A DNA stretch of 63,984 nt, filler included, from Lenisia limosa (taxonomy: Eukaryota; Protista; Breviatea), in NCBI GenBank assembly GCA_001655205.1. It is 17 parts of 17 records of this genome, joined end to end, with 100 filler letters (N's around TTAATTAATTAA, not from the genome) between each part and the next. Parts side by side here need not be neighbours in the genome. Positions count along the whole stretch, not along the records: positions 49,416 to 51,140 come from LPNZ01000795.1; 16 more parts are not named here. One strand, written 5' to 3'. Positions 16,478 through 63,984 of this stretch are shown piece by piece. The translations under genes were made by a program, and so were the position numbers. The first letter of the stretch is position 1, and each line of letters begins with the position of its first letter. Under the pieces are notes generated by a model, which saw only the letters and a list, made by a program, of their open reading frames with translations, did no database searches and was not told where the DNA came from.

Positions 16478-16968
16478 NNNNNNNNNNNNNNNNNNNNNNN
16501 NNNNNNNNNNNNNNNNNNNNNTTAATTAATTAANNNNNNNNNNNNNNNNNNNNNNNNNNNNNNNNNNNNNNNNNNNNACACACTTATTTATAATATAAAT
16601 ATATTACACTATACAAATTCTCTTATAAGCGTGATGGTTTGGACGGTTTCGCAGATCAACCTTGTACAATAAACTGTAATCTCTAATATAGTTGTGTGTA
16701 GGGATCTCAGCCTGATAAACTGGTATATTTCTCACATTGATCTAGATATCGGCACATAAACGACTGAGGAGGAATATATACATGTATATATGTGCTAAAG
16801 AAAGATGGGAAATTAGTTAAAAAGCAATGGCAAAAATAGGAAGTAGGTTGTTGAGGTGACGGGATAAGTCCTGACCAATTTGCCCTTATTTTTCAAGGTA
16901 AATCGATCAAGGTCTATCCCGTCAGTGTATTGCAAATTAACCTCTCACTAAATGTGATTTTCCAACCA

Positions 16969-20788: not shown

Positions 20789-23163
20789 TTAGCTTCTTTT
20801 CTCTAAGGCTGCACGGGCATCTTCTATCATCTTCTTGGCCTGTTCATCGGTCTAAAATGATTAGATATGGCTTGGGCTTCACTTCGGTTCGAAAATAGAC
20901 TGAATTTCACAATAAATCCTCGAAAATTATCGATATTATACCGATCTTTTTCGAACCCAAGTGAAGCCCTAGATATGACTATCAAATAGGTGAAGAGACA
21001 CCAAAATAGATACATGCACAAACATCTTTGACAAATTAGCCATATGACTGTTACTTCTTATCTTTATATTGTTTTGAGTAAATTATTTTTTCATTCCGAG
21101 AGATCTTGAAACCAAATTTCTCCAAAAGGATACTAAACACAACTGGTAACCTTCCTCAACCAAGATAATGACATTTCAATTGAACATTCCCAATTCTCTA
21201 ACCCCATTGCAATAGTATCCCAATAACTAACACATTCTTCAACGTTGTATTCGGCACCATTCTCAATTAGATACTTCACGATATCCAAGTGGCCATATAG
21301 AGCAGCGCAGACAAATGGCGTTTTCCCCTGTTAAGGAGGTTGTAAAAGTAAAAGGCTAATAATCATGCTTGAAACCAGCTGTGCTTACAAAAAAAGCAAC
21401 ATTCCAGTAACTAACATGAATTTCAGCTTTGTTGATGTCAGCACCCTTCCCAATGAGGTACTTCACGACATCCAAGTGTCCATGCATAGCAGCACTTAAG
21501 ATCGGGGCTTGTTCCTATAAAGGCAAGTCATGTGAATTCAAAGAAATTAGGGACCAAAGAGTAAATACAAAATGCCAGAGACAATGATAGAAGCCGTCTT
21601 CAAATTTGGCAATAATGAAAAATTGTGTTCAATTAAAACAATGAAACAGCCCCAAAACCTAATTGAGATAGGTTCTAAAGATTATTTTACCACCTTCAGT
21701 TTTTTTATACTGTCATAATCATCATAATAACTGAACGAAACATAATGCCTATTTGAGAAAGATGGCAATTACCAAAACACACTATTACCAATGTATGCTG
21801 TTTCTCTTAAAAAACGCTTATTCTTCGCATCACAAACCTCTTCGTCAGCTGTGTTGATATTGGCACCTTTCTTTATTAGGTACTCAACGACCTCCAAGTG
21901 ACCTTTTCCAGCCGCACGTATTATTGGAGTTCTTCTCTATAAAGCATGTTAGGAAGTAATAAATGGGATAAATGATGATGACGAGAATAACATAACTGTA
22001 CAATTTAGAAACATTCCAAAAACCAACCCATTGGTCGGCTTTGTTGATGTCAGCACTGTTCTCAATGAGGTACTTCACGCAATCCAAGTGGCCATTTTCA
22101 CAGGCAAAAAACAAGGGTGTGTGAAGCTGTTAAGGTATCAAATTATGCAAGAGAACCATCAATATTGTTGTTAATCACTACAATACCGCGTCTAATGGGA
22201 TATTAATTGATAAAAGAAAGCAAAATCAAATCTCAAAAAGTTGTTCAGCCGAAAGAACACGTCTGTGTGGGTTTTCAAAACACGTAAAATGATGAAACGC
22301 CCAAACCAACATATATATCAGCCTTGTCGACTACAGCACCCTTTTCAATGAGGTACTTCACAACATCCAACTGGCCCTTTTCAGAGGCACGTAAGATGGG
22401 GGATTTTCTCTATCTCATTACTAACAAACGAAAATACTATGTTGTTGTTCCAATCACGATTCATCGATACATATTCCAACTAACCCATTGGTCAGCTTTG
22501 TGGATGTTTGCACCATTCCCAATGAGGACCTTCACAATATCCAAGTGGCCATTTCCAGCAGCAAGTGAGAGGGGTGATCGCTTCTGATATGGATATTAGG
22601 GACTCATTTTGGTGTCAACGAATAATGATAAATCATTCTATTGCTGATATAATCAACCATTAGTCATTCCAATAACCAACATATTCGTCAGCTTTGTTGA
22701 TGTCAGCATCAGCACCCTTCTCAATGAGGTACTTCACGAGATGCAATTTGCCTTTTTCTGCCGCATAGAAGAGAGGAGTTTGTTCCTATTATGTAGGTTA
22801 ATGGATGGAGTAAGGTGGTGAAAATGCAACAAGGATGGTAAGGATGTCAGAAGAACACGAGTTATCCATAGTTTTCACAAATTCGCTGACAGCAACAGGC
22901 GGATTTATTGGTTCGATATTCCTGACTGATTTGGCTATGCATACCATACATACCATCATAGCTTCATCAAATTTAGAGCATTCCTTTGGTTCCAAAATTA
23001 GACATATTTCTCTATATACTATTATAATCATTATTTACACATCGTATGTGTAGTGCCATATTCCTACCGAATCATCAGTTTGATGTATGATATCTTCATC
23101 AGCCTCAATCAGCCTCTTCGCTTGTTCAAGATCACCTTTTTGGCATGCTTCGAAAATATCCAT
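20789..23163 (-). CDS. Ankyrin-repeat protein, complete, 9 exons, ~284 aa
   Basis: Exons 23068-23163, 22681-22785, 22485-22583, 22311-22409, 22028-22126, 21838-21936, 21416-21514, 21232-21327 and 20789-20851 (TAA), all phase 0. Canonical repeats such as HTPLFFACENGHLDCVKYLIENSADINKAD. Confidence 0.95.
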
Positions 23164-26100
23164 TTTCTGGTGGAATCAGGAGCAGTTAAAATTCAATCAA
23201 TATTTAGAGGTGAAATATGAATCAAAAAATTAACAAGGTTGTATCAGACTGAAGCTGGCCAATATACCATCACATTTAGAAGAGATATTAATGAATTACT
23301 GAAACATATTTTTAGAGTACCTAAAAAGACTGCAAAGTTATACACTTTCCAAGTCTATCTTGTATTTGGTAACCTTTGATTTCTTCCCAAAAAGTTGGTG
23401 AGTAGTATTTATTTATGTGTCTATCCTACTCCCACCTCCAAACAACAAATATACACATACACAGTCCCCACACAACCCACCCCACCTAACCAACCCCACC
23501 TTTGTATCTTGTTTGTGTCTTCTATCAAGTATCAAGTACTTCCCTAATGAAATGGAAGGAGGGACAATAAATCTGTTTGCAAAGAAGCAATAATAATAAT
23601 AATCATAAAACAGAACAAAAAAATATTAAAACAAAAACAGGTGAAACAGGTGAAAAAACAAAAGCAGGAAAATAAGTGTGCCCGATTAAAATATGGAGTT
23701 AGTTATCTTTTTTTTTTTTCACAGACCAAGCAAGACCGTGCAAGACCCCTTTTCTGAGAATTCGAATTTGAGTTTCGCACCTTCCTCCATTCTATTCCCC
23801 ATGGCCTCAATATCCCCGGCGTTATTTGTAGGTGAAAAAGGACCACAAGAAACCTTCCTGCTGGAAGAGGTGCCACCACCACCCTTCACGTGGTATGGGG
23901 ATGTACGTGTGTGTATGTGTTTGGAGGGGGGGGGGTTGAGAGGCATGAAAAGCATGTTTGACAGGTGGTGTAATTATCTTTTTTGTTTTAAACAGGGTGG
24001 GGGATGGTGTGTGTGGGCATTATAGCTTTCCAGAAACTTTGCCCTCAATCCTAAATCTTAAATTTCCCGCCCTAAATCTGAGATAATGTGAAAGGGTATT
24101 GGTTTGGGGGGTGGGGCTTCACTTTGGTTCGAAAAAGACATAATTTCTCGATGAATCCTCGAAAACTATCGATATTTTACCGGTCTTTTTAGAACCGAAG
24201 TTAAGCTCTGGGGAGGGGGGAGGGCGGTGTATTGCCTCCCTTCGTAAAGTAAAGGGAGCTTGTGGGAGTGTGTAAAGGATAAACTGGGGTAATGGGGTGG
24301 TAGGTGATAATGGGGCTCATGTGTGCAATACAGTCATTAAAAATACGAAATCTATGGAGAAACGAAAAAGACATACTGAAACACATATTAGCATGTACTT
24401 GTGACTCCCTAATCAGAAGTCCGGTGGAATTTTGGAAGTTTTTCAGGACACCTGGTACATGATAATCTGGAGTAAGTTAGAGCTAGGATGTGTATTTATA
24501 TGCATAACTCCTAGGTTAGAGGAGGCCAAAAAGAGGAATAAGAAGAAGAATATTCATAAATAATTGGAATTTTGGAAAATTGAATTATTCAGAGTCTACT
24601 GATGGGGTCTCTCTACCACCCATGGTCTACTAGAATTTTAATTATGAGTGATTATAATTAGATTATATCGGTCCTGATTACACACTACTATTTACCCTCA
24701 TCATAAACTGTTATCCCCCCCCCCCCGTCTTTACATTACCCACATTCTCACAATTTTTGGCCGCAGAAAGACAACCCAGATTGCTACTGCAGCTTATATT
24801 GTGAAGTAGGGAGGAGGGTTTGCTATATTATATCATGTCACTTTTTTGATCTTTTTTTTCACACGTGTGTCGTTGTTATTTCAAATCCTCATGCTAGTTG
24901 TTATTCCTCTTGTTGCCACCTAGGATCCCAGATTTTGCAAAATTTAGAATTCTAATACCACCCCTTCTCTTCAGCATACACTGAAATATGGATGTCTTCT
25001 ATTAATATTTTACCAACGTATTAGGAGAATATCTTGCACTTATGCCGAAGATACTTGGAACAAAGCAAGGGTATGATGGTGAATATTGGAGCAAACTATT
25101 CGTTGAAAATGATAGTTTACATGTGAAAATATAGAAAAAGACAATTGTGTCATTACTTATCGCGGATAGTACTGTCTAATTTGGACGTGGTAGTAAGATT
25201 TGACTAATATGGATCTAGATTAACCAATATGGAAGATCACATTTAGTATGTGTGACATTTTTTCAAAAAAGGTATAATGATAAACTGCGACAGGGTTAAG
25301 TCTTCACACATATGATTCAGATTCTAAAGATATTACATAAATAAAGGATATTTAAACAAAATAAGAACAGAAAATTTATTTGACGACGCGCAGATGATGG
25401 CGTTGAGCGTATATGTCGCGTTATTTTCTGCAGCCACCCTACTGTAGGGGGGGGGGCAACTTATATATGGTATGGGTGTTTTATTAAGTAAGAGGGGGGC
25501 GGGGTAAATATTTCATTGTAAAGAAAAGTATAAAATATTCTAAATTACTATAAAAGGCAACTTATTTACAATCAATTGCAACAAAATAACCATCAAAGGC
25601 AACTAACAGACCCAGGAACCGCATTTTTTGTATTATAAGGCCTCCGACCCAAGAATGAAGAGAGATGATTTCATCTTTTACGTGAGCTTCTTCTGTGCAG
25701 TATTTATATGCTACTAAATACTAGTATCTCAAATACTATGGTATATATATTGGCCATAATCATGATTTTTTTTTATCCACTGGACTGATGGATGAACTTG
25801 ACTTTCTTTGGTTTATGTTTCTGTCTTGTTTTTAACCATTGTGTAATACAAATACTTGTCGCAGAGTTGATTCTGTTTCATGTCCATTCCCCCCCACAAG
25901 GAACCATGTCTTTGGAAGAGAAAGTGAAGCTCTACCAGTGATTAAGAATTTGTGTGATTATATTGGTGGTTATGCTTTCTTGTCTGTTCTCTCTTCTCAA
26001 ATAATGACCATATGAATGATTGATAGATTAGGATTATTACTTTTAAATCCTCAACTTATTGACCCTTTTTGATTAGTACATGTTTAGTATAGGTCGTGTT

Positions 26101-26213
26101 TTTGAGTAAATTAATTGGCAAAATTATAAATTAAAGTGGGTTCTTGTTACAAAATATTCAAATTTTGAAATTATTTTCCCAATTAATTGCACAGACCTAA
26201 TAATTCCCTTCAG

Positions 26214-26277
26214 GATTATCACGTCTTTTTGGTGGTTGATGAAGGGGACTCCCACACTGTTTATGACTTTGACTCGG
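26214..26277 (+). CDS. Exon of probable protein N-terminal glutamine amidohydrolase (NTAQ1/WDYHV1-like)
   Basis: AG-bounded exon DYHVFLVVDEGDSHTVYDFDS resembles the family signature WDYHV...(I/V)YD(L/F)D(S/T). Upstream exons were not resolved and the scaffold ends just after. Confidence 0.65.
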
Positions 26278-26427
26278 GTGACTGGGGGAGCCCTTTTGTC
26301 AATGGGAAGGGTGTGTGAATGGACATTNNNNNNNNNNNNNNNNNNNNNNNNNNNNNNNNNNNNNNNNNNNNTTAATTAATTAANNNNNNNNNNNNNNNNN
26401 NNNNNNNNNNNNNNNNNNNNNNNNNNN

Positions 26428-32239: not shown

Positions 32240-34759
32240 GTGGGGGGGGGGGNNNNNNNNNNNNNNNNNNNNNNNNNNNNNNNNNNNNNNNNNNNNTTAA
32301 TTAATTAANNNNNNNNNNNNNNNNNNNNNNNNNNNNNNNNNNNNNNNNNNNNCCTCTTCTGTGACCGCAAAAAAAAGTGATCCGCATCTTCTCCACTGAT
32401 CCGCATTTTGACCCATCACATACATATAGCTATATATTACTACCACTAAGGAAGAGTTGTCTCAAAAAACAACTGAATGCAAAAATACACGATTTATCTG
32501 TAAAAGTGTGGTTAAGTATTGGCTACGATGAGCACATGGTCTTCTCCCCGACTAAAAAGATCCATCATCCTAGGTATTTCCTAATATGATAGTCTTTAAT
32601 ATTTATAATACTAATAATTATATAAAAAATATGATATCATACATGTGTACAGTGACCGTGTGAAATTGACCGAAATGTCATTCCTGTAGGGATCGGGTTT
32701 TAGACCTTTCAACCATTTTGAAAGTGACTTTAGATGCAGACCCCTCATTTATGTTTTCAGACAAATTTTGATTAGTTATGAAATAAGTGAATGGATTCAC
32801 TAAATTATGTAAAATATATTCATTTTAGTGAAATTTAGATTAAAGCTGCTGCACAGCGATTGGAGGGAATTGAATCAATCAACTTTTTGACTTCTTCCAA
32901 CATACAGGTCTTTATTACACCCATTTCATTTTGGCGTCTGGCTTGGTTGGCTGAGATGAGTTTGTCACATAGCTCCATTTCGTTTCCCACTCTTTCTTAT
33001 TAGGGCCGAGATTTTGACTTTTTGTTTTCAAAATGGGGCTTCAATTTTGTGTTTACGTTTCATTTTAAAAACAGTGCCCAATGTGGACCGGTGGTATATT
33101 AGAGGTAATGCGAAGACAATTCTCCCTAAACTTTGTGTAAGTTATATTTGGTACCAGTTTTGTATTAGTTGAACAACTTGCTCCTACTAGAAACCCCGAA
33201 TCTGTAGTACTTAAAAAGCGGCTTTGTACCCCTATTTTTACACTATTGTCTGCCAAATTGAGAACCCTTTTCGAAAATGATTCATTCTTGTAGTTTTTGA
33301 GCGAAGTATATGATATTTCCACACACTTAGAACTTTCTATTTGAAAGGAAAAGTGGTTAAAAAAACAGAATAGCGCGAAAACGGGTGAGGGCCTTCTTTT
33401 GTTCAAAAATCAGGGCTAGGACTTCCCCCTTTTTCTCACCAGTCTCCTCACACTCATTCTTTGTTTGACTTTTACATATGATCATATGTCTTTCTTGTTT
33501 AATTATTATGTTTTACCATTTTACTAACTTTTTAGCCAATCATTTCGGCAATAATCAAATCTGTACCTGTGGTGCTCTGCTCATCTCCAAAACAGTTAGA
33601 ATTTTGTTGCTACCCTCAGTCGGCAAAAAGCTACTCTTTTTGTACAAGCGCTGTCGCTCTTCATTTCTGGCTCTTGGGATCGTGGCAGTATTAGAGTTTG
33701 TTCTTGGTTTCCTTTTCCTTTAGCAAAAAGGGATTTTTTCAACTTTAAACTCGTGAGTCGTTCGTTATCTTATAAAGATTGTTTGTCCGGATACCATTCC
33801 AATCACAAAATTTATTAAAAATCATGCACTTGTTGTGGATTTTGGAGTGAACTTATCATTGAAAAACTCAGTCCCATCATCAAAGCAAGTTATTTCCAAA
33901 TAGCTTTCATTTAGAGTGAAAATTGGGTCACTTCAAAATTATTAAAAGGAAGGCATTGGCCGTCAAGTTCATCTTTTCTCATAAATATATTTGCGGTATC
34001 TCTTTATTATAATTTTGGAGCTCTACGGTCTTGGGGAATTAAGTTTACTCAAATATTATCATGATAACCTTGTGATTTTTTTATTATTAAGTTATCAGAT
34101 TCTCAAACGCGCTATGAGGATTTTTCCCAACACTGTCAGCATACCTTCAAATAATTGGCTTTCTTCTGCATTAGTTTGAAATATGTTTTTGTAATCACAG
34201 AGATTCGCCTTTTCAGATTTATATACCTTATCCGGTAGCCTCGTTGCTGAAATTTGTGGGAATACTGATTCCAAGTTTTTGTCTGATAGGACGGTAGTTT
34301 TTTTTGTTGGTTTATAACCGAAACATATCAGATATCAATACCGCCTTCATGTACATATTGTAATAAGGTTAAAACCACGAACAACAAAAAATGGGGCTAT
34401 TCTTTCAATTTTCGACAAAGTGTGATCTTAAAGTTATGGTCAGAGAAGCAGTTGCAACCCCCCCCCCCCACCTTGGGCGATCGAGCGNNNNNNNNNNNNN
34501 NNNNNNNNNNNNNNNNNNNNNNNNNNNNNNNNNNNNNNNNNNNNNNNNNNNNNNNNNNNNNNNNNNNNNNNNNNNNNNNNNNNNNNNNNNNNNNNNNNNN
34601 NNNNNNNNNNNNNNNNNNNNNNNNNNNNNNNNNNNNNNNNNNNNNNNNNNNNNNNNNGTTTCTTGTTTTGAGACTAACCATCTTTATCTAAATCGTATCA
34701 CAGTCTCTTTACATTAATCACTTTGTTTTTGATTTCCAAGGGCGTCTTCGCTGAGGCTT

Positions 34760-35099
34760 TGGCTTATGCTTCCTCTTCAGTTGCTTCACCTGCTTCCTAC
34801 GATACAGATCCTCTCTTCCCCTTTCCTGAAGATGAGAATCGTTACAACAATGGCAAAGTTTGGTATTTCTAAGTCGACATAGCGTATTATAACAACCACC
34901 CTCTTGAAGGGTACACAAAGTACTCTATCCACCATGTCTTCACCATATCGCCCATGCGGCAGATTCCGTAGTACCCTGCCAGGTAAATAACTCGGATGAG
35001 GATGTTTTTCTTCTTATTGGAGCCAGTACTCGCAGTTGCTCTTAGAGCAGTTGAGGAAATAATCCCAATCAGAATTCTTTTAAATTGACTTAAATGCAA
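34760..35099 (-). mobile_element. Degenerate tyrosine-recombinase fragment (box I region)
   Basis: NILIRVIYLAGYYGICRMGDMV resembles YR box I and closely parallels the copy at ~40092 (NILIHLSAFFATARMGDFL). Downstream frames are broken. Confidence 0.5.
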
Positions 35100-35214
35100 G
35101 CGCTACTCTGAGTTGAGAGTAACATCCTTTTTTTTCCTAAGTACTACATTCATGATTTCTGGAAGCAAATGGAGGAAAAACTGAAAACAGGAAAGTATAT
35201 TATGTTCCCGAGGG

Positions 35215-35336
35215 GGTATGGCATTCCAGGATTTCCGCGGTTGTTTTGCGGAGGTTCCTCGGTTCTCACTCAGCTTTGCCTCGTTCGTCCCTTGGAACCT
35301 CCTTAAAACAACCGCGGAAATCCCGAATGCCATATC
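35215..35336. repeat. ~122-bp hairpin/MITE-like element with ~43-bp inverted arms
   Basis: GGTATGGCATTCCAGGATTTCCGCGGTTGTTTTGCGGAGGTTCC ... GGAACCTCCTTAAAACAACCGCGGAAATCCCGAATGCCATATC. Confidence 0.8.
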
Positions 35337-36149
35337 TCCGAGTGTCTGCGCGTCGAGGTGATATGAGCTTTCATAATCCCAAGGGAAATTGGAAAAGTCA
35401 TATTTTTTGGGAAATTCGTCATATTTTTTCAAATCGACAATATTATCAAACAAATATCATATTTTATGCTAATATCACAAGGGGGTGGTAATAAGGGAGG
35501 GGGAAAGAAAGGAATCTTTGGTGACACGTCATCGAAATGTCAAAAATATGATGCATATTACGCCCGAATATGGCAAATGTCCTATGTATAAATATGACGT
35601 TTTTCATATAGGTTGGTGTTTAAAACCGCAACATGATTAAAACGTGAACAAGCCAAAAATCGACATAAATCGCTTCAATAACACCCTTTTTAGCGTGAAA
35701 TTCGGCAGTTTTGAGTACTAGACTATTTATAACATCAAAACAAAGATATTTTGAGCAAAAGGAAAGAAAAAAAAGAGGAGATAAAAAAATAATTAAAAAA
35801 GATCTTTTGATCAGAATCGTCCCCCGGTGGGGGTCACCAAGTTTCCTTACGCGAAAATATTTTTTGAAACCCCCCTCTTTCAGAATAATAGCATTTTGGG
35901 CCTATTAAAGTGCCCCACTCTAGAAACGCAGATTTTTAAGGAGAATTCGAGTCTGAAGTCCATTTTTGGAGAAAATGTAGTGGTTTTAAGGGGTTTAAGT
36001 CAACTTTTGTAACGGTTTTTTCAAGAATTTTCCTTGTTCAGTCTCTATAATGGAGCCAATGGACGAAATAGACGTCTAATTAAAGTATATGCTGCGTCAA
36101 CAACCCATTGACCGTTCTGGAACGGCTTTATTAACATCTTTTATCATAT

Positions 36150-36790
36150 TTTCGCCCATTTATGGGTAATTTACGCTCACTTTTTGCCCGATTTGACTCG
36201 TATTCTCTACTTAAATGCCTCTAGGTTACTCAAGGGTGGAAATAATCCAATCTGATGGTACAAGAACGTCTTCACTTTATCGCAGGGACAATTCTAGGTC
36301 CATAATCAGTGTATTTCGAATGAAAAATTGAAGTACCATGAAGGTGGTATTTTGCATGTATGTTGATACCCCTGCCCCCACGAGCATACTTGTCATGTGC
36401 CTTTTTGATTTGCTCAGGTTCAAGTGAACCATGATGGCCGTCCTCCACTAGTATGTCAGTGTTTGTATGATATGTGTGTTCAATATTCAATGGTTTATCG
36501 GTTCTGATATCAATTTTAAAATCAAGAGATAAATGAGTCACTACAACTCACTGTTTTGATGAGTGAATAGAANNNNNNNNNNGAGCTGACCGTCCTACTT
36601 GTCATCAGTTCAAGACAATAGGAGATGAATTGGGTCACGTTGTATAAATTATCAATAAGTCACTAGCAGATAACCAACCTTTTTGACCGCTCAAGAGCAA
36701 CAACCCCTCTTATTCGAAGGTCTTCGTGCACTACACCGTTAAGACAATAGCCAAAGAATAACGTGACAGTTCACCTCAAACCTATCATCA
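36150..36790 (-). pseudogene. Possible pogo-like (DDE_1) transposase remnant
   Basis: Broken frames carry, in DDE_1 order, TVTLFFGYCLNG, SGQKGWLSASDL, ILVEDGHHGS and GTSIF...DYG....AIK (cf. RvTv.c..a.G, kGWmt, LLlDgHsSH, T..lQPlD.g...lK). The match is weak and interrupted by stops and a gap. Confidence 0.4.
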
Positions 36791-38099
36791 GCTGTAGATG
36801 GAACAAGTCACAGGTTTCGTGTGTGTCTGCGATTACCTACAACAGCGCATATCCCACACTCAGTGATCATATCACATCCCATATATCAATCCTCTGTGAG
36901 GTCACACCGTATGTTGGTCCACCCCCGGGAGTCTTTGGATGTTTGCTGGTTTCTTGCGGTCTCTCTGGGGGGAACTTGGCTTGGATGGCAGGTTACCCAG
37001 GCTTGACCTGAGTAGTTAAATAAAAAACTGAACTTCATTATTGTAGTCTTCTATTCAAGGTCTGAGCATTATGTACACTTGTTGAATATGGGAATCTGCC
37101 AAAACCACGCACCCCTTCTTTTGAACAGTTGGTGTTGGAAGTCCCAAAGAGGACATTCGTCTCGGTAACTGCTGTGGAAGGGGATCGTCTGCCGTGTTAT
37201 TGTCGTGTCCGAAAACGACGAGCATTGATCTTTCAATAACTTAATTAACCACTGAGCACATTTAACAAAACTCAAAGCTCACAAGTGCTGTTAAGGATGG
37301 AGGTTGAGAAGTTGGAGCGGAGAGGGGACGAAGTGGTCTGAATGTATCAAATCCGTTTTTCATAGCGAGAAACCTTCTGTTCAAACCACCAAGGAGACCT
37401 GCTGGACTGGCGCAATCCCTGGGCTAATGGGACTCACAGGACTGAAAAATGAAACAAAAGCANNNNNNNNNNGGACTATTCAAACAAGTTTGGAAAATGA
37501 TAACCAGAGAGAATGTAATGATTGCCATCACTCCTCACCGTGATGGTGTTGGAGTATTATTGGCTGACGATCGCGTGGACCTTGTTCCTCTGAAAGAAGT
37601 AAAACCTCAAGTGAAAACGTTCGGAATTATTAAGCTCATCCTCATACCCAGCCCGTTGGATCATATCCATGTTGCCTCGGCGCATGTGACTTGGCGTGGC
37701 TACACGCGATGCAGCTAAGGACGCCGCCGTCGGTAGTGACGGCTCAAAGAGATCTTTTATTGAGGAGGTCGTCAGCCTGGAGTTGGACCTGAATGGTGAA
37801 AACCTGTTATGCTTTATGCTAATACTCTAATGCTGATCTGAGATAATATAATAATAAGAACTGAGAAATTGAAAAACGCTAACAAGAAAATCACCTTCTA
37901 AGGAACGCTGTGAACTCGCCAAGAGTACGAATCCGACTGCTGCTTCCTGGACAATCAATCACCAAAAGAAATGNNNNNNNNNNNNNNNNNNNNNNNNNNN
38001 NNNNNNNNNNNNNNNNNNNNNNNNNNNNNNNNNNNNNNNNNNNNNNNNNNNNNNNNNNNNNNNNNNNNNNNNNNNNNNNNNNNNNNNNNNNNNNNNATT

Positions 38100-39300
38100 T
38101 TGGTGGTACTGAGCCACGCACCACTTCAGCTGAGGCCCCAACGAATATAACCCTGTATAAAGGAGTGTTTCGTTGCAGATTTTGAGGGCCTCAACCGATC
38201 CTTGGTTGGGTGACTTTGACCATTTTCCAATGCATATCGAGCCAGTGATGAGAAGTAGCTCGAAACAGATTGAGATGAAGTAACAGTTATCGAGACCTGA
38301 GCAATCCACATTTCAATCTGGGTACATTAGCCAATATTATTTGCCTACCTAACTCAGACCACCCAGTATCAAGACACTTCTTCTGATAGATCTTAGCGGC
38401 TCTACCATCTGTTTTCACAGTCGTGTTCCCTACATATCTGGCTTGCTCATCATGGTGGCGGAAGACAACTTCAAGGTAGTGAGACACCAGGATAATTTTA
38501 AAGTAAACAAAAGTTACAATCCTTGCAACAAGACAAACCAAGAAAACTGGTTGCAGACGGAGAACACAATGATCAGTCGCAAAGAGAGCGAAGTCCTTGA
38601 CAGAAGGTCGGAAGGAACTGCAAGGAGTAAATTAAGAATAAACAAGTAGGTACTGACTTTGGGTAATTGGTTTTTTTTGTATATCCTTGAATTGTAAGCG
38701 TTAGCATACGTACATGTGCACAATGAGCTTGCCAAACAGACTTTGCTGCATCCAATTTAACTACAAAACAAAATGCTACACTTCAGAGTAAGTGTACTGA
38801 TGAAAAACTACTCCCCCCCCTCCCCCTTACCCCCAATGAAGGAAAGAGTGGGCTTCATCCAGTACAACCGCAGCTGCAAGACCGCGGGTGACCAGACGGT
38901 AGTAAAGGGCCACGGCTGAGCGGAACTGCTCCGGTGCAAAGTAGACTAATTAGTCAGCCATTATCTTGAATATACCCAGAAACTAGTCGTCTTGTTACCA
39001 ACCAAGATTTACAACCGTCAGAGTGCTAAGGACTCCCTCCACCCCCCTTTCAGCTGGCTGAATTCGATAATAAACCATTATTTGACCAATGGTTTCAATG
39101 GAGGTAGGTTTTGTTTCCCCGTTACCACCTTTCCCTGGTGTTCCATATCGTGAACACGCTTTTTCATAGTTCTGGAATCGTGCCACAGAAGCTTTTGAAG
39201 CCCTTTTTGTTGTAGACAGTGGCAACCTGCTTTTATGAATGCTATCGGCCTCTTCTTCAACCTGCCCACGGTCTTGATGAGGAAGGACAGGTTCGCTTTG
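38100..39300 (-). pseudogene. RecQ-type SF2 helicase, spliced and decayed
   Basis: Exon 38831-38945 reads VYFAPEQFRSAVALYYRLVTRGLAAAVVLDEAHSFLHWG (RecQ motif II: YvtPE..VvDEAH..WG). Downstream frameshifted segments include VRMLTLT (motif III-like) and WSELGRQIILAN..VDCSGL (motif V-like). Confidence 0.7.
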
Positions 39301-39420
39301 GACTATGATCTGCAAATATATCTTTTCTATGTGTATGATATATAGTATATATGCATATATATATAATATAAGAAATGCCAAAACTTCAGCGTATTTGAGA
39401 TTTGTTGAGTCCCCATTTAC

Positions 39421-39590
39421 TGTCAAGTATTGTTGCAAATGGGTGGTGAAGACTCTTGATGAGGTTCTCACTGAACACCCTGATGCCTTCCCGGTGTCCT
39501 CTGCAGACGAGATCCATGACTACCAGAAGGAGGTGGTTGACCTACTCATTGAGAAGCGCCAAAACGTGGCAGCTGTTTTGCCTACTGGCT
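39421..39590 (+). pseudogene. RecQ-type helicase Q-motif/motif I segment in inverted orientation
   Basis: EIHDYQKEVVDLLIEKRQNVAAVLPTG corresponds to RecQ 'r.yQ.eai..il...dv.vvlPTG'. It lies on the strand opposite to the motif II exon. Confidence 0.65.
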
Positions 39591-40059
39591 CACTTATCAC
39601 CGTATTGCGGTTTCTGGTTAGGGGTTGCACCAATCACCATTGGTCACTGGTACCAGCTAAAACGCCCTCTAAAAGAAATATGTTCTGAATTACTAAACTA
39701 AAGACAAATCCGGGTAAAAAAGGAAGGTTATGAAAACTTCCAGGGTATAAAAGAAGTGAAATCGGAGTTAGACCCGCCGGCGAACAGGGAAGTTTTTTCC
39801 TATATTTAAGGTAAAACGTGGTATTATCAGAGTGATGAATTGATGAAAATATAGTCAAATCAAATGAGGAAACCTTCAACGGACTAACGGAACCTAAAAA
39901 TTACGTCACGAAAGAAAAAATACGGCATTATTGCGGCTGTCACAGTAGGTGGTGGTGCCTTAACAGGGTTTTTTCTTAACGGCATCCTTATCGCTGTTGG
40001 TGCTGCTCTTGGAATTTCATGTCAAAAAATCTCAGTGAAATTGAATAAATAAAAATAAA

Positions 40060-40570
40060 AATTTATCTTTCCCACATGCCCTGACAATATTTTGATTCAT
40101 CTATCTGCTTTCTTTGCCACGGCCAGAATGGGTGATTTTCTGCTACCAAAGTCAAATGAAAGGGAAAGAAGCCCACCTCTGGACTCTGTGGTTATTGAAG
40201 ACTCCTTTGTGTCCTTTGTTTCAGCCTTTACTAAAAATTCGGCGAGACCTGTTAAGTTTGTGTTTTCAAAAACAGTCAAACAGAAATTATGTCCTGTCAA
40301 GGCAGTTAGTGACCTTTATTCCCAATCTGTTAACAACCCCAGAAACGTTCATCACGCAGTGTTTACATGGCCTTCAGGCCAATTGGTAAGAACAAGAGCT
40401 ATGTATGGGATACTTAGGGAAGATCTTTGCAAAGGCTGGTATTAATGAGGATCTATTCCATCCGCCATACAAGCACGACTTATATATCTGGCTCTGAGGC
40501 CGACAAAATGAGGAGAGGTGGTTAGAAATCGATCAGAATGATGCGTAAATACGTCCATGGATTGATGCAT
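40060..40570 (+). mobile_element. Tyrosine recombinase pseudogene (DIRS/Ngaro/Crypton-type YR domain)
   Basis: Catalytic-domain motifs in order: AFFATARMGDFLLP (R), FTKN (K), LCPVKAV, VFTWPSGQLV, then after a frameshift YSIRHTSTT (HxxR-like) and GG*KSIRMMRKYV (W replaced by a stop; catalytic Y). Confidence 0.8.
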
Positions 40571-40822
40571 TCTTTACTACCATTTTTACCGTGTTTGGGT
40601 TCATTGGGGGGGTGTTTTGAGTCCTTTCAAGACTCTAAAGCACTGTTATCCAACATAGTTGTTCTCCTAACACAGTAAATAATGGTTGAACGAACATTCA
40701 ATACTCGAAATGTCACAACATATTATAAGCATATTTCTATACTATATCTATTTTCACATTGTAAATTAACACTTGTGGTAACAGTTTGGAATGGTATTCA
40801 GAGTGCATACTTGAGGTGAAAT

Positions 40823-41764
40823 AAAACCCGATTTTACCGATTTTTTAATAAACTTTTTGAACAGTTGCCCTCTTATAACGTGAACATCATTAAAAACCAT
40901 TGGAAATATGAAATAATAACTAACACAAATTCCAGGAAATTTAGCACTCTGGGCCGGGCGCCCGGGCCAATTTTCTTCAAAAAACATAACATCTTGCTAC
41001 TGTTGTGATTTTGTGATGTTCTTAAATTTGGAATTAAGTTTGCGGAGGTTTCATAACTTTTGCGATATTTTTTTATTTGTTTGTGACCCAAATGTTCCAG
41101 AAAGTTCGATACTTGCCATATTGGGAAAACAGGGTTACAAAGTCGAAAAAACGGTCACTTCTCATCGTATGTTTCATTGAAACTTCGAATGACTTCAGAA
41201 ACAGAAAGCCAGACCCCCAAAACCCTAAAAATGGTCGAATCGTTTTTGAAATAGCGTAACTAGGCTCGAATAATAAGCCTGACATTTTGACTGAAATTAG
41301 CAACTGTGGAACATTCGAGAATTTTGGTACTTTTAATTTCCGATTCGACCATTTTTAGGGTTTTGGGGGTCTGGCTTTCTGTTTCTGAAGTCATTGGAAG
41401 TTTTAAAGGGCCGTACGATGAGAAACAACTGTTTTTTCGATTTTTTAAACCCTGTTTTTTTCAATTTGGCAAGTGTCGAACTTTCTGGAACATTTGAGTC
41501 ACAAATAAAAAAAAATATCGCAAAGTTATGAAACCTCTGCAAACTTAATTCCAAATCTAAGAACATCACAAAATCACAACAGTAGCAAGATGTTGTCATG
41601 TTTGAAGAAAATTGGCCCTGGCGCCCGGCCCGGGGTGCCAAATTTTCCGAAATTTGTGAAATTTTACATTTAGTTATTATTTCATATTTCCAATGGCTTT
41701 TAATGATGTTCACGTTATAAGAGGGCAACTGTTCAAAAAGAAAAGGTCGGGTATAATCGGGTTT
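40823..41764. mobile_element. Foldback-type element with ~420-bp imperfect inverted arms and 98-bp spacer
   Basis: Left arm ~40823-41242 and right arm 41341-~41764 are reverse complements, e.g. GAACAGTTGCCCTCTTATAACGTGAACATCATTAAAA / TTTTAATGATGTTCACGTTATAAGAGGGCAACTGTTC. No coding capacity. Confidence 0.92.
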
Positions 41765-42195
41765 AGTGTCGGTAGCAAATATATATTGACAAAATGTGTG
41801 TGTGCGTGCGTGTGTGTGTGGCATCAAGATCTTGTAAAAATCTCTAGAATATGCTGAAAATATCAAGTAAATACCTGGATAACAGTTGCCCTAAGATCAT
41901 TTTAGCTGGTGAATAAACACCATGTTGAACATCTTCTTGACCTTACTTCACTTGATTTTGATGTAAGAAAAGTTGTGTTTTTGGAGAATTTTGGTCATTT
42001 CTCTAGAAATATGACATTTCCCACTCCATCTTGCGTATGTATGTATTGAGAAAACAAAGCACCTACCACCACCACCACCCCACACACACACACACNNNNN
42101 NNNNNNNNNNNNNNNNNNNNNNNNNNNNNNNNNNNNNNNTTAATTAATTAANNNNNNNNNNNNNNNNNNNNNNNNNNNNNNNNNNNNNNNNNNNN

Positions 42196-42370: not shown

Positions 42371-42666
42371 CCCATGTACATGGGGGTATGGGGTCTGGGT
42401 AAGATATGTATATATATTTAAGATTTATTTCTGATGTAATGAGAGTTCACCGATTACAGTTTTTAAACTATCAGAAATTCGTGATGTTACTGATTTCATT
42501 GTTTATGGACAATAGTAAATTGCATGGGAAAACAAAGATTTTTCAGGAGTATTCGTTGACCCCGAATTTTGAAAATAAATCTACTATATATCTTCATGGG
42601 GTCATTGGGTCACAAAATACTTATAGTAGTATATTATGTATATGCATATATTGGATGACCGCCCTC

Positions 42667-42785
42667 GGTCAAGACTTATCACGGTCAGGTCAAGACTTAT
42701 CACGGTCACTGTATCGTATCCAAAGCACTGTCACCCTCGGTCAAGACTTATCACGGTCACTGTATTGTATCCAAAGCACTGTCAA
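42667..42785. repeat. Tandem array of the right TIR of the CAGTG-type MITE
   Basis: GGTCAAGACTTATCACGGTCA occurs three times; two copies continue CTGTAT(C/T)GTATCCAAAGCACTGTCA. Confidence 0.85.
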
Positions 42786-42979
42786 GCCTCATTTCTTCAG
42801 AACGTACACCCCAGGAGCAAAGATCGAAATATACAACGCACCAATAAAACATGGAGTCCTCGTTTTGACCCCTGTTTGTGCCAAAATGCTCGGAGGATTT
42901 GTCTACCAATTTAAGCAGTGAGGGGCACTAATATTACGTGTTTTTTTTTTCCAAACATTTCCCATTTACTCCAACCCAG

Positions 42980-49415: not shown

Positions 49416-50975
49416 GATCTCCACTCAGAACAAAAAGTAATAGCTCCTAAGGAGTTTAATGAAATTAGTGTTTCCCATTTATCAATTAATGGATTTGAAG
49501 TTACCAACAATAGTCAGCTTATTGAATTTCGTGGAGCTGACATAGAGGCATATCACAACTTTGGTAAAAATGAAATAGTTCAAGATTTTGTTTTGGACAA
49601 TTTCAGTGTGGTTGACTATTGGTCATTAAAAGCTGCAGGTATTGTAAATAATGGACTTCCATCGGCTACTGGAAAGTCAATTAAATTATCATTATACAAA
49701 ATCGAAGGAGAAAGTGAAACATTACTAAATACCACACAGCGTGGAGTTGTTGAAAAATATACAGTAGTTTATGAAGCTGATGGAACAACTATACAAAGTA
49801 AAACCTTTAATAGAGTTAAAGCATTTACCCCATTTTATATGAACGATGTGGAAACTAAAATTGAAGCAGGATTGCCTTATAGATTAAAACTTTCTTGTTC
49901 AGATCCTGATGCAGAACTAATGGTATTTTCATACAATCAAACTGATGAACCAATTAGTATTAAAGTTAACGGTGTTGAAACAGGTAAATTAGTAAGTGGG
50001 AGATTATTTGGAGTAGATAGTTCCTCTGAAATACCTTTACTTGAAAAAACTTATGATGACGTCAGTAAAACATCATATATCAATTGTCCAGCCAGATTAC
50101 AGGTTGGAAATATTACTGATTTAGAAACCAGTGTAAATAGTAATATTACTGCAATCACTACTTTAAACAACGATGTAATAGACATAAATAGTGCAATAGC
50201 CACATTACAAGTTGAAGATACTAATATGGTAAATAATATTTTAACTAATAGTGATAAAATTGCAGTGTTAGAAAGTAATAGTGGAACTGATTTAACCAGC
50301 GTTGAGAATAGATTAACTACTGTTGAAGGAACAAGTAACGCTAATACTGGAGCTATAACAAACATCAATACAACTTTAGGTACTCATACTACGTCAATTT
50401 CAAATATCAATACTACAATTAATCCTTATGCTTCTTATTTTAATGTTGTTAAAGAGAGAATAAATAATATGATGTCACTTCAAGGGGTAGTTGGTATGAC
50501 TGCTCATCAAAATCAAATTACAAGCGTTAGTGCAATTCCAGATGGAGTTACAAGTGTATCAATTCCCTTTGAATTTGGTACCGGAATAACCAATTATGTT
50601 GAAGCATATAATAACAAAGCCGACGGAAAGATGACTATTCTTAAAGACTGTACGTTCCTAGCCGAGATAAATTTATATTTTAATAATGCAGTCAACGAAG
50701 GTGATCCTGACAGCTTTAACGTTGCTTTGGCTGTCAATGGAGTTGATAGTTGGTACCATACTGTAAGGTCAGAAACAATGCCTACAACGTTTACAATAAA
50801 CTCCACCAGAATATTATCATTGGTAGCTGGTGATGTAATTCAACTAGTTATTGATCATAATGGAAGAAACGGGCTAACACATGGAGGTAGTGATTATTAT
50901 CAAGAATCCCAATGGAGTTTAACAATACTCTCTCCCAAAGAACTAAGACAGCAGTCACCGATTTGGGAATTTTAA
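49416..50975 (+). CDS. Intronless virus-like fibre/adhesin protein: N-terminal domain, trimeric coiled coil, C1q/TNF-like head (5' truncated, >=519 aa)
   Basis: The frame is open from the scaffold start (59 codons upstream of the called 49593). There are no introns and codons end mostly in A/T, unlike host exons. N/T-rich heptads (ITDLETSVNSNITAITTLNNDV..LTSVENRLTTVEGTSNANTGAITNINTTL) precede a beta-sandwich head ending FNVALAVNG..STRILSLVAGDVIQLVI..SQWSLTIL. Confidence 0.75.
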   Translation, partial: DLHSEQKVIAPKEFNEISVSHLSINGFEVTNNSQLIEFRGADIEAYHNFGKNEIVQDFVLDNFSVVDYWSLKAAGIVNNGLPSATGKSIKLSLYKIEGESETLLNTTQRGVVEKYTVVYEADGTTIQSKTFNRVKAFTPFYMNDVETKIEAGLPYRLKLSCSDPDAELMVFSYNQTDEPISIKVNGVETGKLVSGRLFGVDSSSEIPLLEKTYDDVSKTSYINCPARLQVGNITDLETSVNSNITAITTLNNDVIDINSAIATLQVEDTNMVNNILTNSDKIAVLESNSGTDLTSVENRLTTVEGTSNANTGAITNINTTLGTHTTSISNINTTINPYASYFNVVKERINNMMSLQGVVGMTAHQNQITSVSAIPDGVTSVSIPFEFGTGITNYVEAYNNKADGKMTILKDCTFLAEINLYFNNAVNEGDPDSFNVALAVNGVDSWYHTVRSETMPTTFTINSTRILSLVAGDVIQLVIDHNGRNGLTHGGSDYYQESQWSLTILSPKELRQQSPIWEF

Positions 50976-51789
50976 ATATATATATATATCTATAAAATAC
51001 CCGATAGGGTCGTACCCCTAGAAATTAATATTTAATACCCTCAACAAAAATTCCTGAAATCGTAGAAGGCGTTCTTAGCTTAAGCTAATGCTTGATTAAG
51101 TTAAGCCACTTACCTAAGTAACAACAAATGGAGAGGAGATNNNNNNNNNNNNNNNNNNNNNNNNNNNNNNNNNNNNNNNNNNNNTTAATTAATTAANNNN
51201 NNNNNNNNNNNNNNNNNNNNNNNNNNNNNNNNNNNNNNNNAAAAGCCAGACAAAAACACAAAAACAAAAACAAGCCCGAGCCAGCCTTTGAAGAGTCCCA
51301 TCACTGCTCGATCACCCAAACGTGTGATATAATATAGTATAGTATATGCAAATAAGATAAAAGATGAGAGGGGGAGGGGAGGGTTATCAATAAGTCCTGA
51401 CAATATTTTTGTTTGATCTTTAGTCAATCATGTCAGGAATATTTACGATTTTATAATTATGTATTGACATCAAAGGCATGAACAAAAGACTCTAGGATCT
51501 CTGTTAGATTCTGACGTTGTGTGGTCGTGGAAATGGCTGCAAGCTAATATTCCATCTGGTAAAACACAGTTTTCTTGACTTTGTTTACAAGGGACTCCTA
51601 TCTACAATGGTATATTCAAAGATAATCACAACATTGTGTGAATACAGATCAAATAAAGGCTGTCCCTGACGAGATGGTTAAACCACTTGGAACCTCAATG
51701 AAGTATCACAATCCTCAATCATAGAAATCTTTTGTTAACTTGGTGAGGGATAATTATTACCATAAATGGTAAGTGTTTTTTTAACGAAT

Positions 51790-62533: not shown

Positions 62534-62798
62534 GTACGGCCCGGGCGCTGGTGCTCTATGTGGGGGGTCTGTATTATACGTAAGGCTTCACTTCGGTTCG
62601 AAAAAATACTGTCTCGATTAATCCTCGAAAACAATCGATATTTTCCAAGTTTTTTTGAACCTAAGTGAAGCAATTGCAGAAGCGACTGGCCTNNNNNNNN
62701 NNNNNNNNNNNNNNNNNNNNNNNNNNNNNNNNNNNNTTAATTAATTAANNNNNNNNNNNNNNNNNNNNNNNNNNNNNNNNNNNNNNNNNNNNCGTTAT

Positions 62799-63272
62799 GT
62801 GCAAGCGGAAAACAAAAAAATGACAGAAGAAAAATTACAGATAGAATTTTTAAAAGAACTGCTTTTAAATACACCGAATAAATCGGAAATGAATATTAAC
62901 GGATTTTACTCTGAGCATATCTCTGACAAATCATTCCGAAAATTGTTCTCTGAAAAACAAGTTCCTGATAAAAGTGAAATTTCGACTTTTATTATTCCAC
63001 TGACTTCTGAATTAAAAAAAATTCTGTTAAATATTCTCGAATTGGAAAAAGAAAAACTGATTTACGACTTGGTTCATTTCTCAATCGAAAAAGAAAGCAA
63101 ACCGATTTTTGTCAGTTATGACGGAATGGAATTAATGCAAATAAATAAAACGGAATTTAATGAGACATTACTCAATTTGATTTCGGTAAAATATAAAGCA
63201 CTTGAAATTAAATTATTTGACGAAATTAATGACAACGGATTTTTTGCAACGGAGAAAAAAGCCAGCACATAA
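62799..63272 (+). CDS. Bacterial hypothetical protein (gene cassette ORF)
   Basis: Intronless ORF of 157 aa (ATG at 62820 is an alternative start). Its TAA stop lies within the attC-like R'' box. Confidence 0.8.
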   Translation: MQAENKKMTEEKLQIEFLKELLLNTPNKSEMNINGFYSEHISDKSFRKLFSEKQVPDKSEISTFIIPLTSELKKILLNILELEKEKLIYDLVHFSIEKESKPIFVSYDGMELMQINKTEFNETLLNLISVKYKALEIKLFDEINDNGFFATEKKAST

Positions 63273-63400
63273 CACAGTATAAAAATAATTGCTTAGTTTT
63301 AGGCTTAACCCAGTGGCGTTGCAAGTTTACTACGTCTGATTTTCCTGCGGAAAATCCTCGCACGTAAACCCGCAACTCTTTTTATACCAACCGTTAGGGC
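63266..63400 (+). mobile_element. attC-like recombination site (integron gene cassette)
   Basis: R''-like ACATAAC at 63267-63273 and R'-like GTTAGGG(C) at 63393-63400 flank the imperfect inverted repeat AGTATAAAAATAATTGC / GCAACTCTTTTTATACC. The scaffold starts with GTTATGT (62794-62800), the exact complement of ACATAAC. Confidence 0.8.
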
Positions 63401-63404
63401 ACAT

Positions 63405-63984
63405 ATGAAAAAAACATTGGAAATATTGACTTTTCTTTTTGCCATAACATTGATTTCCTGTGGTAGAAATTATCGTGTGGACAAAAACGATTTGAATTAT
63501 ATTCCTTATAACGGAAATGAGGTTTTAATTTTTAAATCTGATTTGAATAGATTGGACACAATTTTCGTCAAAGATTTACGGAAATTTAATGGATGCTATG
63601 ACCCTTTGTCCTTTTCGTCAGATGATTGTGAGGGTTATGAAATTGTCACAAAAGCAACTGACCCGAATTATGACAGATATCTGGAAGGTCAAGGTTTAGT
63701 GCATATTGTAAAATCAAAAGATGGCGAAACTTATATAAACTTTGGAATTACTATGAAAGGCTCTTGGTTTTATGGTGCTGAATTACATCCGATAAACCTA
63801 AACCGATTTGATAGTATTCCGACATCTTCAATGGTTATTGAAAATAAAAAGTATGACGATGTCAAAACCTTAAAATCAAATGGACGATATAGTAAAAGAG
63901 ACAATTACGTGGAAAGAATTTATTGGAGTGTTTCAGAGGGGTTTTTAGGACTTGACAGAAGAGACGAAAAATGGAGATTAATAA
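63405..63984 (+). CDS. Bacterial lipoprotein (second cassette ORF, runs off the window)
   Basis: MKKTLEILTFLFAITLISCGRNYRVDKNDLNYIPYNGNEVLIFKS.. has a signal peptide II lipobox (LISC). It is open to the end of the window and starts 4 nt after the attC R' box. Confidence 0.85.
   Translation, partial: MKKTLEILTFLFAITLISCGRNYRVDKNDLNYIPYNGNEVLIFKSDLNRLDTIFVKDLRKFNGCYDPLSFSSDDCEGYEIVTKATDPNYDRYLEGQGLVHIVKSKDGETYINFGITMKGSWFYGAELHPINLNRFDSIPTSSMVIENKKYDDVKTLKSNGRYSKRDNYVERIYWSVSEGFLGLDRRDEKWRLI

What the first reader, a model, noticed from the sequence alone, without database searches (positions are those of the whole stretch)
49416..50975. Virus-like fibre gene with a C1q/TNF-like head on an intronless scaffold
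Seen: at least 519 codons without introns and A/T-ending codons, against heavily spliced, often C-ending host genes. The architecture is N-terminal domain, ~100-aa N/T-rich heptad stalk and beta-sandwich head. Known: trimeric coiled coil plus C1q/TNF-like head is typical of viral fibres, phage tail fibres and some bacterial surface proteins. Inference: a fragment of an endogenous or co-cultured DNA virus (Polinton-like virus, virophage, giant virus or phage). No capsid, packaging ATPase or polymerase is on this scaffold, so the virus class cannot be assigned.
Basis: partly seen in the sequence, partly recalled or inferred. Interest (0 to 1): 0.7.

Follow-up and report, generated by a model that had tools for sequence, protein, structure and literature searches.

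The report
Shuffled viral fibre in eukaryote genome
This intronless gene is predicted to make a rod-shaped virus attachment fibre with a C1q/TNF-like tip; a broken, part-swapped copy lies on a contig with the host's repeats, so it likely belongs to a small DNA virus that inserts into this eukaryote's genome.

Summary
A 519-codon frame, cut at the 5' scaffold edge, fills a 1.7-kb, 33% GC scaffold unlike the intron-rich host scaffolds. It has a ~125-residue N/T-rich heptad stalk and a head predicted to fold like C1q/TNF (Foldseek E 5e-7; Z 11.8; model pLDDT 57).

New evidence points to an endogenous eukaryotic virus. A frameshifted, stop-containing second copy lies on a non-coding contig carrying host repeats (L001). 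Depth is near host level. A roughly 600-bp two-fold repeat begins 80 bp after the stop, as a terminal inverted repeat would. One weak polyA contig is spliced antisense across the gene with host-like splice sites.

Only two full-length relatives were found (P0002, P0007). The broken copy is a chimaera: upper stalk 48/55 identical to P0007, lower stalk 68/75 to this protein, so fibre modules were likely swapped.

No capsid, ATPase or polymerase could be seen, so the class is unproven. A Polinton-like virus or virophage is most likely (about 0.6), a giant virus next. New variant of a known kind.

The parts
49416..50975 (+). Fibre-like ORF, 519 codons, 5' end cut off by the scaffold edge; no intron, no stop
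   Evidence: relatives are 640 and 794 aa
49416..50102 (+). N-terminal beta-rich region (aa 1-229), fold unresolved; aa 176-229 are a neck 26% identical to P0002/P0007, aa 20-175 only 16-18%
50106..50483 (+). Coiled-coil stalk (aa 231-356), N/T-rich heptads with I/V/L at a and N/L/I/V at d, broken once at a conserved GTD hinge (aa 289-292)
50280..50345 (+). Stalk hinge where the broken copy in L001 switches from P0007-like to this-gene-like sequence (inferred crossover zone)
50499..50951 (+). Predicted C1q/TNF-like beta-sandwich head (aa 362-512)
50969..50998 (.). AT-rich palindrome over the stop codon (13 pairs, includes a TA microsatellite); possible 3'-end hairpin, weak
51056..51140 (.). 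Start of a repeat present about twice in run X1: a 598-bp contig at depth 76.5 runs beyond the scaffold end, and a different 6,092-bp contig at depth 45.2 enters it; candidate terminal inverted repeat
   Evidence: tables 2, 7, 8
50761..51113 (-). 353-nt GT..AG intron of an antisense polyA transcript; donor inside the repeat, acceptor inside the head-coding region; one 85-nt contig at depth 3
   Evidence: table 5

Best explanation
The gene likely encodes the receptor-binding fibre of a small DNA virus of the Polinton-like virus/virophage kind that is likely integrated in this eukaryote's genome, with a predicted C1q/TNF-like head on a coiled-coil stalk. Three chains would wind the stalk and close a three-fold head (inferred from the C1q/TNF fold; not modelled here). 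The missing N-terminus would anchor it at the capsid vertex (inferred), and the head would bind a surface receptor on the host cell or on a helper giant virus (inferred; ligand unknown). The gene would be the last one before the element's terminal inverted repeat (inferred from a two-fold repeat). Shown: a decayed copy lies on a contig with host repeats, and it joins the upper stalk of one family member to the lower stalk and head of this one. Related elements therefore likely met in one host lineage and swapped fibre modules at a conserved stalk hinge, as phage tail fibres do.
For: (1) Fold: the top 10 Foldseek PDB hits are all C1q, collagen NC1 or TNF-family heads, best E 4.8e-7. VIA-align best Z 11.8 (rmsd 2.9-3.1, 122-133 aligned); 48 of 48,161 chains reach Z 8; PRD1 vertex protein P5 is at Z 8.4. 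Atlas neighbours of the head are viral clusters at 0.91-0.93, some with C1q/BclA_C/TNF. (2) Fibre hints in relatives, all weak: PHROG tail fibre E 0.0012 and tail needle E 0.016 for P0002, tail fibre E 0.013 for P0007, reovirus sigma-1 tail E 0.27. (3) Endogenisation: L001 (6,627 bp; longest stop-to-stop frame 143 aa) holds the copy in several frames with an in-frame stop and shares a ~450-bp repeat at 82-87% with host scaffold 32353-42095. Its right junction matches a loose end in run X1. Two more short pieces of the gene (41 and 57 nt) have foreign flanks in X1. (4) Depth in X1: 40-47 for the 3 contigs of this gene, 34-39 for the broken copy, 23-38 for the 8 longest contigs shown on one host scaffold. 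(5) A two-fold repeat of at least ~620 bp starts 80 bp after the stop; published mean TIRs are 485 bp for PLVs and 808 bp for virophages in one protist (10.64898/2026.07.28.741278, passages). (6) The antisense joint uses the only GGTAAGT and the only CCTT..AG on the minus strand of the scaffold; host acceptors read CCTTAACAG/CCTTTATAG; a random joint shows GT..AG 1.9% of the time. (7) Chimaera: L001 upper stalk 48/55 to P0007 against 24/52 to this protein; lower stalk 68/75 and head piece 49/54 to this protein against 20/58 and 17/53 to P0007. (8) The relatives lie on contigs of 29,212 and 13,263 bp, near the 15-30 kb of such elements (PMC10120064, passages).
Against: No hallmark gene (capsid, A32 ATPase, pPolB, integrase) was seen, and the neighbours of P0002 and P0007 could not be read. 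C1q/TNF heads are widespread: the 50 best viral structure matches are mostly tailed phages, with giant viruses too (Terrestrivirus, Marseillevirus, Hokovirus, Cedratvirus). The head model is only middling (pLDDT 57, 2 sequences), and Pfam C1q is not reached (P0007 13.3 bits against a cut-off of 23.7). No host junction was seen for the intact copy, and its depth is about 1.2-1.5 times the controls; the tool warns that contig depth is no copy number. The orientation of the repeat's two copies is unknown. The spliced RNA is one 85-nt contig at depth 3 with 27 nt on its short side, from one study. The strong host repeat in L001 is 3.1 kb from the relic, so a mis-join is not excluded. The fibre inventory of PLVs in PMC12220804 (passages) names no C1q, TNF or coiled-coil head.
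Confidence: 0.6

Rival explanations
1. Fibre gene of a giant virus (Nucleocytoviricota), as part of an endogenised stretch or a resident infection; the relic is a decayed piece of it.
For: Giant-virus proteins with the same head fold rank 4, 13, 19, 20, 37 and 49 among the 50 viral structure matches shown. AT-rich codons. A 13-pair hairpin over the stop, one of only 2 such in the 64-kb window, recalls the Mimivirus hairpin polyadenylation signal (PMC6723459, passage), though Sputnik virophage genes carry it too.
Against: No relative in IMG/VR in 4 protein scans. The gene sits directly against a two-fold repeat of TIR size. The hairpin is largely a TA microsatellite and folds at only -6.1 kcal/mol.
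Confidence: 0.17
2. The intact copy belongs to a free or episomal small eukaryotic DNA virus in the culture; only the relics are integrated.
For: No host junction was seen for the intact copy; its depth is somewhat above the host's; the frame is intact.
Against: Depth within about 1.5-fold of host single-copy contigs would be a coincidence for a replicating virus; the antisense RNA from the repeat appears to be spliced by the host machinery.
Confidence: 0.1
3. Tail-fibre or vertex-spike gene of a phage (tailed or tectivirus-like) of a co-cultured bacterium, with pieces transferred to the eukaryote.
For: The assembly holds bacterial DNA (last scaffold). Atlas and Foldseek neighbours are mostly Uroviricota. 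Tectivirus Toil gp30 has a C-terminal C1q/TNF domain (PMC5773508, passage).
Against: No tblastn match in 50,697 phage records, no PHROG match for this protein, no true prokaryote locus. One long and two short relics, plus host-type splicing, are hard to get from a phage.
Confidence: 0.08
4. A host gene: a C1q-domain coiled-coil protein, native or domesticated from a virus.
For: Host-like depth; coiled coil plus C1q head is also a cellular architecture (EMILIN/multimerin, abstract start).
Against: No intron in 1.56 kb where host exons are about 100 nt; GC3 0.195; composition outside all 32 host chunks; the only 2 RNA contigs laid are antisense-spliced or downstream; no cellular relative among 1.84 billion representatives.
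Confidence: 0.05

Closest known systems
Phage-like fibres of Polinton-like viruses (Gezel-14T Ltf; the inventory in PMC12220804)
   Same: Modular fibre predicted to bind the host surface, in low-GC elements with TIRs that assemble as short separate contigs; Ltf was found in virions (10.1101/2022.07.28.501842, passages).
   Different: The described heads and modules are S74 chaperone, laminin G3, collagen, adenovirus fibre, phage tail repeats, BppL and YadA; the words C1q, TNF and coiled occur 0 times in that main text. This one has a pure coiled-coil stalk and a C1q/TNF-like head, and no element context is proven.
Tectivirus vertex spikes: PRD1 P5 and Toil gp30
   Same: TNF/C1q-like knob at the C-terminus of a spike in the PRD1-adenovirus lineage (P5 Z 8.4, rmsd 3.3, 125 aligned; gp30 per PMC5773508).
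   Different: Bacterial hosts; P5's shaft is collagen-like and beta-spiral (recalled), not a long coiled coil; 9% identity; P5 scores below cellular TNF/C1q heads.
C1q/TNF/BclA-C heads on tailed-phage and giant-virus fibres
   Same: Same predicted head fold (lactococcal phage 1358 RBP Z 10.2, cyanophage A-1(L) short fibre Z 9.3, Marseillevirus putative tail fibre E 1e-6).
   Different: 8-20% identity only; many carry collagen stalks; no sequence-level match.
MELD viruses/adintoviruses of non-animal eukaryotes (PMC8502044)
   Same: Midsize linear integrating DNA viruses whose 'Fiber' genes resemble phage tail fibres or coiled-coil proteins (figure legends).
   Different: No head fold is given in the passages seen; no PolB or capsid is available here to compare.

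Membership tests
C1q/TNF-like superfamily (head) | Ten-stranded jelly-roll beta-sandwich of the C1q/TNF type | tested here: met
   Predicted model, pLDDT 57: Foldseek E 4.8e-7 to C1ql1, Z 11.8 to APRIL/BAFF and EDA-A1 over model residues 75-224
C1q/TNF-like superfamily (head) | Pfam C1q (PF00386) above its cut-off | tested here: not met
   No hit for this protein; P0007 13.3 bits against 23.7. Works like C1q by fold, not a Pfam member
C1q/TNF-like superfamily (head) | Homotrimer | not tested
   No complex model was obtained; inferred from the fold family and the heptad stalk
Polinton-like virus / virophage endogenous element | Double jelly-roll major capsid and penton genes | not testable with these tools
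   Scaffold is 1,725 bp; no whole genome is held; contigs of P0002/P0007 could not be fetched
Polinton-like virus / virophage endogenous element | A32 packaging ATPase, pPolB or primase-helicase, integrase | tested here: inconclusive
   Only the bacterial bin G001 that holds L001 could be searched: Pox_A32 0 matches; the one DNA_pol_B_2 match is a bacterial polymerase II-type gene
Polinton-like virus / virophage endogenous element | Terminal inverted repeats of hundreds of bp | tested here: inconclusive
   Two-fold repeat of at least ~620 bp entered by two different contigs; orientation and outer end unknown
Polinton-like virus / virophage endogenous element | Integration in the host genome | tested here: inconclusive
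   Met for the broken copy (L001 shares host repeats); not shown for the intact copy, whose depth is host-like
Polinton-like virus / virophage endogenous element | Lower GC than host, intronless genes | tested here: met
   GC 0.329 against 0.379-0.459 for the 15 host-like scaffolds; 519 codons without intron
Giant virus (Nucleocytoviricota) | Core genes (NCLDV capsid, PolB, RNA polymerase, VLTF3) in the same element | not testable with these tools
   No flanking genes available
Giant virus (Nucleocytoviricota) | Hairpin polyadenylation signal at the gene end | tested here: inconclusive
   13-pair AT hairpin over the stop, partly a TA repeat; shared with Sputnik-type virophages, so it does not discriminate
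Tailed phage or tectivirus fibre | Sequence relative in phage or prokaryote genomes | tested here: not met
   0 matches in 50,697 phage records; 0 PHROGs for this protein; 1 locus in genome contigs, which is eukaryote-type DNA

The most novel reading that the evidence does not exclude
An undescribed family of integrating eukaryotic DNA viruses carries a vertex fibre with a tectivirus-like TNF/C1q knob on a coiled-coil stalk, and changes its target by recombining stalk and head modules at a conserved hinge among elements resident in one host, with decayed copies in the host genome as a record or reservoir of modules. The terminal repeat carries a promoter and a spliceosomal donor that would drive the first gene at one end and an antisense RNA into the fibre gene at the other.
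Probability: 0.2. Interest if true: 0.7.

Novelty: new variant of a known kind. Interest (0 to 1): 0.47.

Why it matters
How Polinton-like viruses and virophages choose their host cell is open: their receptors are unknown and their fibres are mostly annotated by weak phage similarity. This gives a compact, foldable 150-residue candidate receptor-binding head, three natural variants of it (35-52% identical), and one natural chimaera that marks where modules were exchanged. That makes host-range determination in these viruses testable. It also shows a mis-binned eukaryote contig inside a bacterial genome used as a species reference. Endogenous viruses of this kind are common in protists, so the mere presence is not surprising.

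Tried and rejected
Sequence searches that found nothing for the protein: Pfam (only coiled-coil noise; head and N-part alone), PHROGs, PDB sequences (8; arrestin hits at E about 0.09 are noise), the 5.8-billion word search (12, 49; it also missed P0002, so it is lossy), phage tblastn, IMG/VR (15, 56, 57, 109; repeat motif 108), JGI metagenomes, Rfam, earlier scan findings (27, 39, 40, 111, 112: nothing). P0004 and P0005 match only through the coiled coil and were dropped. The single-sequence fold of the whole protein was uninformative (pLDDT 33.6) and was not searched. The N-terminal domain stays unassigned: Atlas 0.88 to unnamed viral clusters; profile comparisons of the N-domains, the P0007 insert and the head gave probabilities under 3%, so an internal duplication is not supported. 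A DNA_pol_B_2 hit in bin G001 was an ordinary bacterial polymerase gene next to a metabolic gene. A diversity-generating retroelement was considered for the second copy and rejected: only 13 of the 40 substitutions start from A and most sit at codon position 3. No RNA contig covers most of the gene; contigs show presence only, so this is no evidence of silence. The host's lineage was not determined.

Full report
Setting. The window is 17 short scaffolds joined by artificial linkers. Fifteen look like one intron-rich eukaryote: GC 0.38-0.46, poly-C/G runs in 14 of them, short frames; a polyA contig maps to one of them as six exons of 75-140 nt encoding ankyrin repeats. The last scaffold looks bacterial. 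The finding fills scaffold 49416-51140. No whole genome is held. That the host is a cultured protist living with bacteria is my inference; its lineage was not determined.

Observation. The frame is open for 519 codons from the scaffold's first base. GC is 0.329, GC3 0.195, and trinucleotide composition lies outside all 32 host chunks of equal length. Residues 231-356 are predicted helical, with heptad periodicity that 0 of 2000 shuffles reached; a positions are mostly I/V/L and d positions mix N with L/I/V, a pattern I recall as typical of trimeric viral stalks. The frame is a real gene: 26 of 36 substitutions to a second copy outside a gapped zone are at codon position 3, p = 2e-6 (28 of 40 with the gapped zone).

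Head. A two-sequence model of residues 289-519 (pLDDT 57, pTM 0.48) gave C1q, collagen NC1 and TNF-family heads as all top ten Foldseek hits (best E 4.8e-7) and Z 11.8 to APRIL/BAFF and EDA-A1; BclA Z 10.3-10.5, lactococcal phage 1358 RBP 10.2, PRD1 P5 8.4. Viral matches are mostly tailed phages with several giant viruses. The Atlas gave 0.91-0.93 to viral clusters, some with C1q/BclA_C/TNF. The fold call is good; it does not name the virus class, and Pfam C1q is not reached.

Relatives. HMMER over 1.84 billion representatives returned 4 proteins: P0002 (640 aa, 47%, E 3e-79; one ENA contig of 29,212 bp), P0003 (88 aa, the broken second copy), and two coiled-coil-only hits that I dropped. A search with P0002's N-half added P0007 (794 aa; one contig of 13,263 bp). 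Module identities differ sharply: P0002 and P0007 share the N-domain at 79% and the neck at 89% but the head at 35%; this protein shares lower stalk and head with P0002 at 66% and 52% but the N-domain at 18%. P0007 has an extra ~125-residue insert in the stalk. Whether these two contigs come from the same host is unknown.

A decayed copy in host DNA. The one hit in prokaryote genomes, L001, is filed in a bacterial bin but is non-coding (longest frame 143 aa) and shares a ~450-bp repeat at 82-87% with host scaffold 32353-42095 and a 70-bp piece with another. It holds about 690 bp of the fibre gene in several frames with an in-frame stop in the head, ending at about residue 462. The residues of P0003 match the substitutions seen in run X1, and the right junction equals the loose end at 50800. 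The relic is a chimaera: 15/18 and 48/55 identical to P0007 in the upper stalk (24/52 to this protein), then 68/75 and 49/54 to this protein (20/58 and 17/53 to P0007). Nucleotide identity to the window rises from 0.65-0.70 to about 0.9 near 50340, just after the GTD hinge that all members share. Elements of both types must therefore have recombined, most simply inside one host lineage (inference). Two further pieces of 41 and 57 nt with foreign flanks are in X1. Caveat: the strong host repeat is 3.1 kb from the relic and both assemblies are from short reads.

Copy number and right end. In X1 the gene's three contigs have depth 40.3, 46.9 and 44.5, the relic 33.6 and 38.6, and the 8 longest contigs shown on host scaffold 16578-26327 have 23.2-37.5, mean 29 (one scaffold tested, most records not shown). 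This fits about one copy per genome, but contig depth is no copy number. From 51056 the sequence is a repeat: a 598-bp contig at depth 76.5 runs past the scaffold end, and a different 6,092-bp contig at depth 45.2 enters it at the same side. Two arms of equal depth converging on a two-fold repeat of about 620 bp or more is what a terminal inverted repeat gives in an assembly graph; two dispersed copies would look the same. An AT hairpin covers the stop; weak.

RNA. The polyA run X2 laid 2 contigs. One (85 nt, depth 3) joins 50760 to 51114, skipping 353 nt with GT..AG ends on the minus strand. The donor is the only GGTAAGT and the acceptor the only CCTT..AG on that strand, and the acceptor resembles host acceptors; a random joint shows GT..AG in 1.9% of trials. 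This suggests an antisense transcript that starts in the repeat and is spliced by the host, placing the DNA in a eukaryotic nucleus. It is one short contig from one study, and the donor exon could come from either copy of the repeat.

Mechanism. Shown: open frame under selection, heptad stalk, relic on a contig with host repeats, chimaeric relic, adjacent two-fold repeat. Predicted: C1q/TNF-like head. Inferred: trimer, vertex anchoring by the missing N-terminus, receptor binding by the head, TIR, integration of the intact copy, PLV/virophage identity (0.6). Rivals: giant virus 0.17, free small virus 0.10, phage 0.08, host gene 0.05.

Comparison with print. I saw passages only, through term searches, of PMC12220804 (PLV fibres; C1q, TNF, coiled and antisense 0 times in the main text), PMC10120064 (15-30 kb elements, 47% with TIRs, often on short contigs; it also warns that stops in such elements are often assembly artefacts), 10.64898/2026.07.28.741278 (TIR means 485 and 808 bp, fragments), 10.1101/2022.07.28.501842 (Ltf in virions), PMC8502044, PMC6723459 and PMC5773508; PMC10945749 held none of my terms. 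The artefact warning is unlikely to explain the relic, which is a separate 11-18% diverged contig with its own flanks. Searches for C1q with virophage (3 papers) or Polinton (1 paper), and two multi-term searches (0 and 1 papers), listed nothing on such a fibre by title and abstract start. I read no supplements; Supplementary Fig. S6 and the domain tables of PMC12220804 may list C1q domains. The library lacks most subscription papers.

Verdict. A real viral fibre gene, most likely from an endogenous PLV/virophage-type element, with an apparently undescribed head-and-stalk combination for that group and direct sequence evidence of module swapping. Class membership is unproven. New variant of a known kind; interest 0.47.

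Noticed in passing
window 62793-63984: Last scaffold looks bacterial (GC 0.32, CpG o/e 1.3, two unspliced ORFs, the second with a lipoprotein-like signal peptide): a contaminant in the eukaryote assembly.
   Followed up: partly
L001 (G001:C47), whole contig: A eukaryote-type, non-coding contig is filed in a bacterial metagenome bin labelled Colwellia that serves as a species reference.
   Followed up: yes
window 40824-41777: Two ~450-bp arms in inverted orientation, about 87% complementary, about 50-100 bp apart; one copy of the arm is also in L001 938-1416. Probably a host fold-back or MITE-like repeat.
   Followed up: partly
window 19945-22126, minus strand: Expressed host ankyrin-repeat gene with one 33-residue repeat per ~99-nt exon.
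   Followed up: partly
window 51000-51140: Several short palindromes after the gene, including a perfect 14-nt one near 51076-51089 inside the repeat; the 141-nt stretch folds at -28 kcal/mol, no shuffle control run.
   Followed up: no
window 42403-42918: Host exon with an RMI1 N-terminal OB-fold match, E 9e-5, just under the cut-off.
   Followed up: no
window 16578-26327: Short, very high-copy AT-rich repeats in host introns (summed depth up to 31,000 in X1) break the assembly every 0.6-1.9 kb.
   Followed up: no
P0007 residues ~441-590: An extra ~125-residue beta-rich domain is inserted in the stalk of this relative; unassigned.
   Followed up: partly
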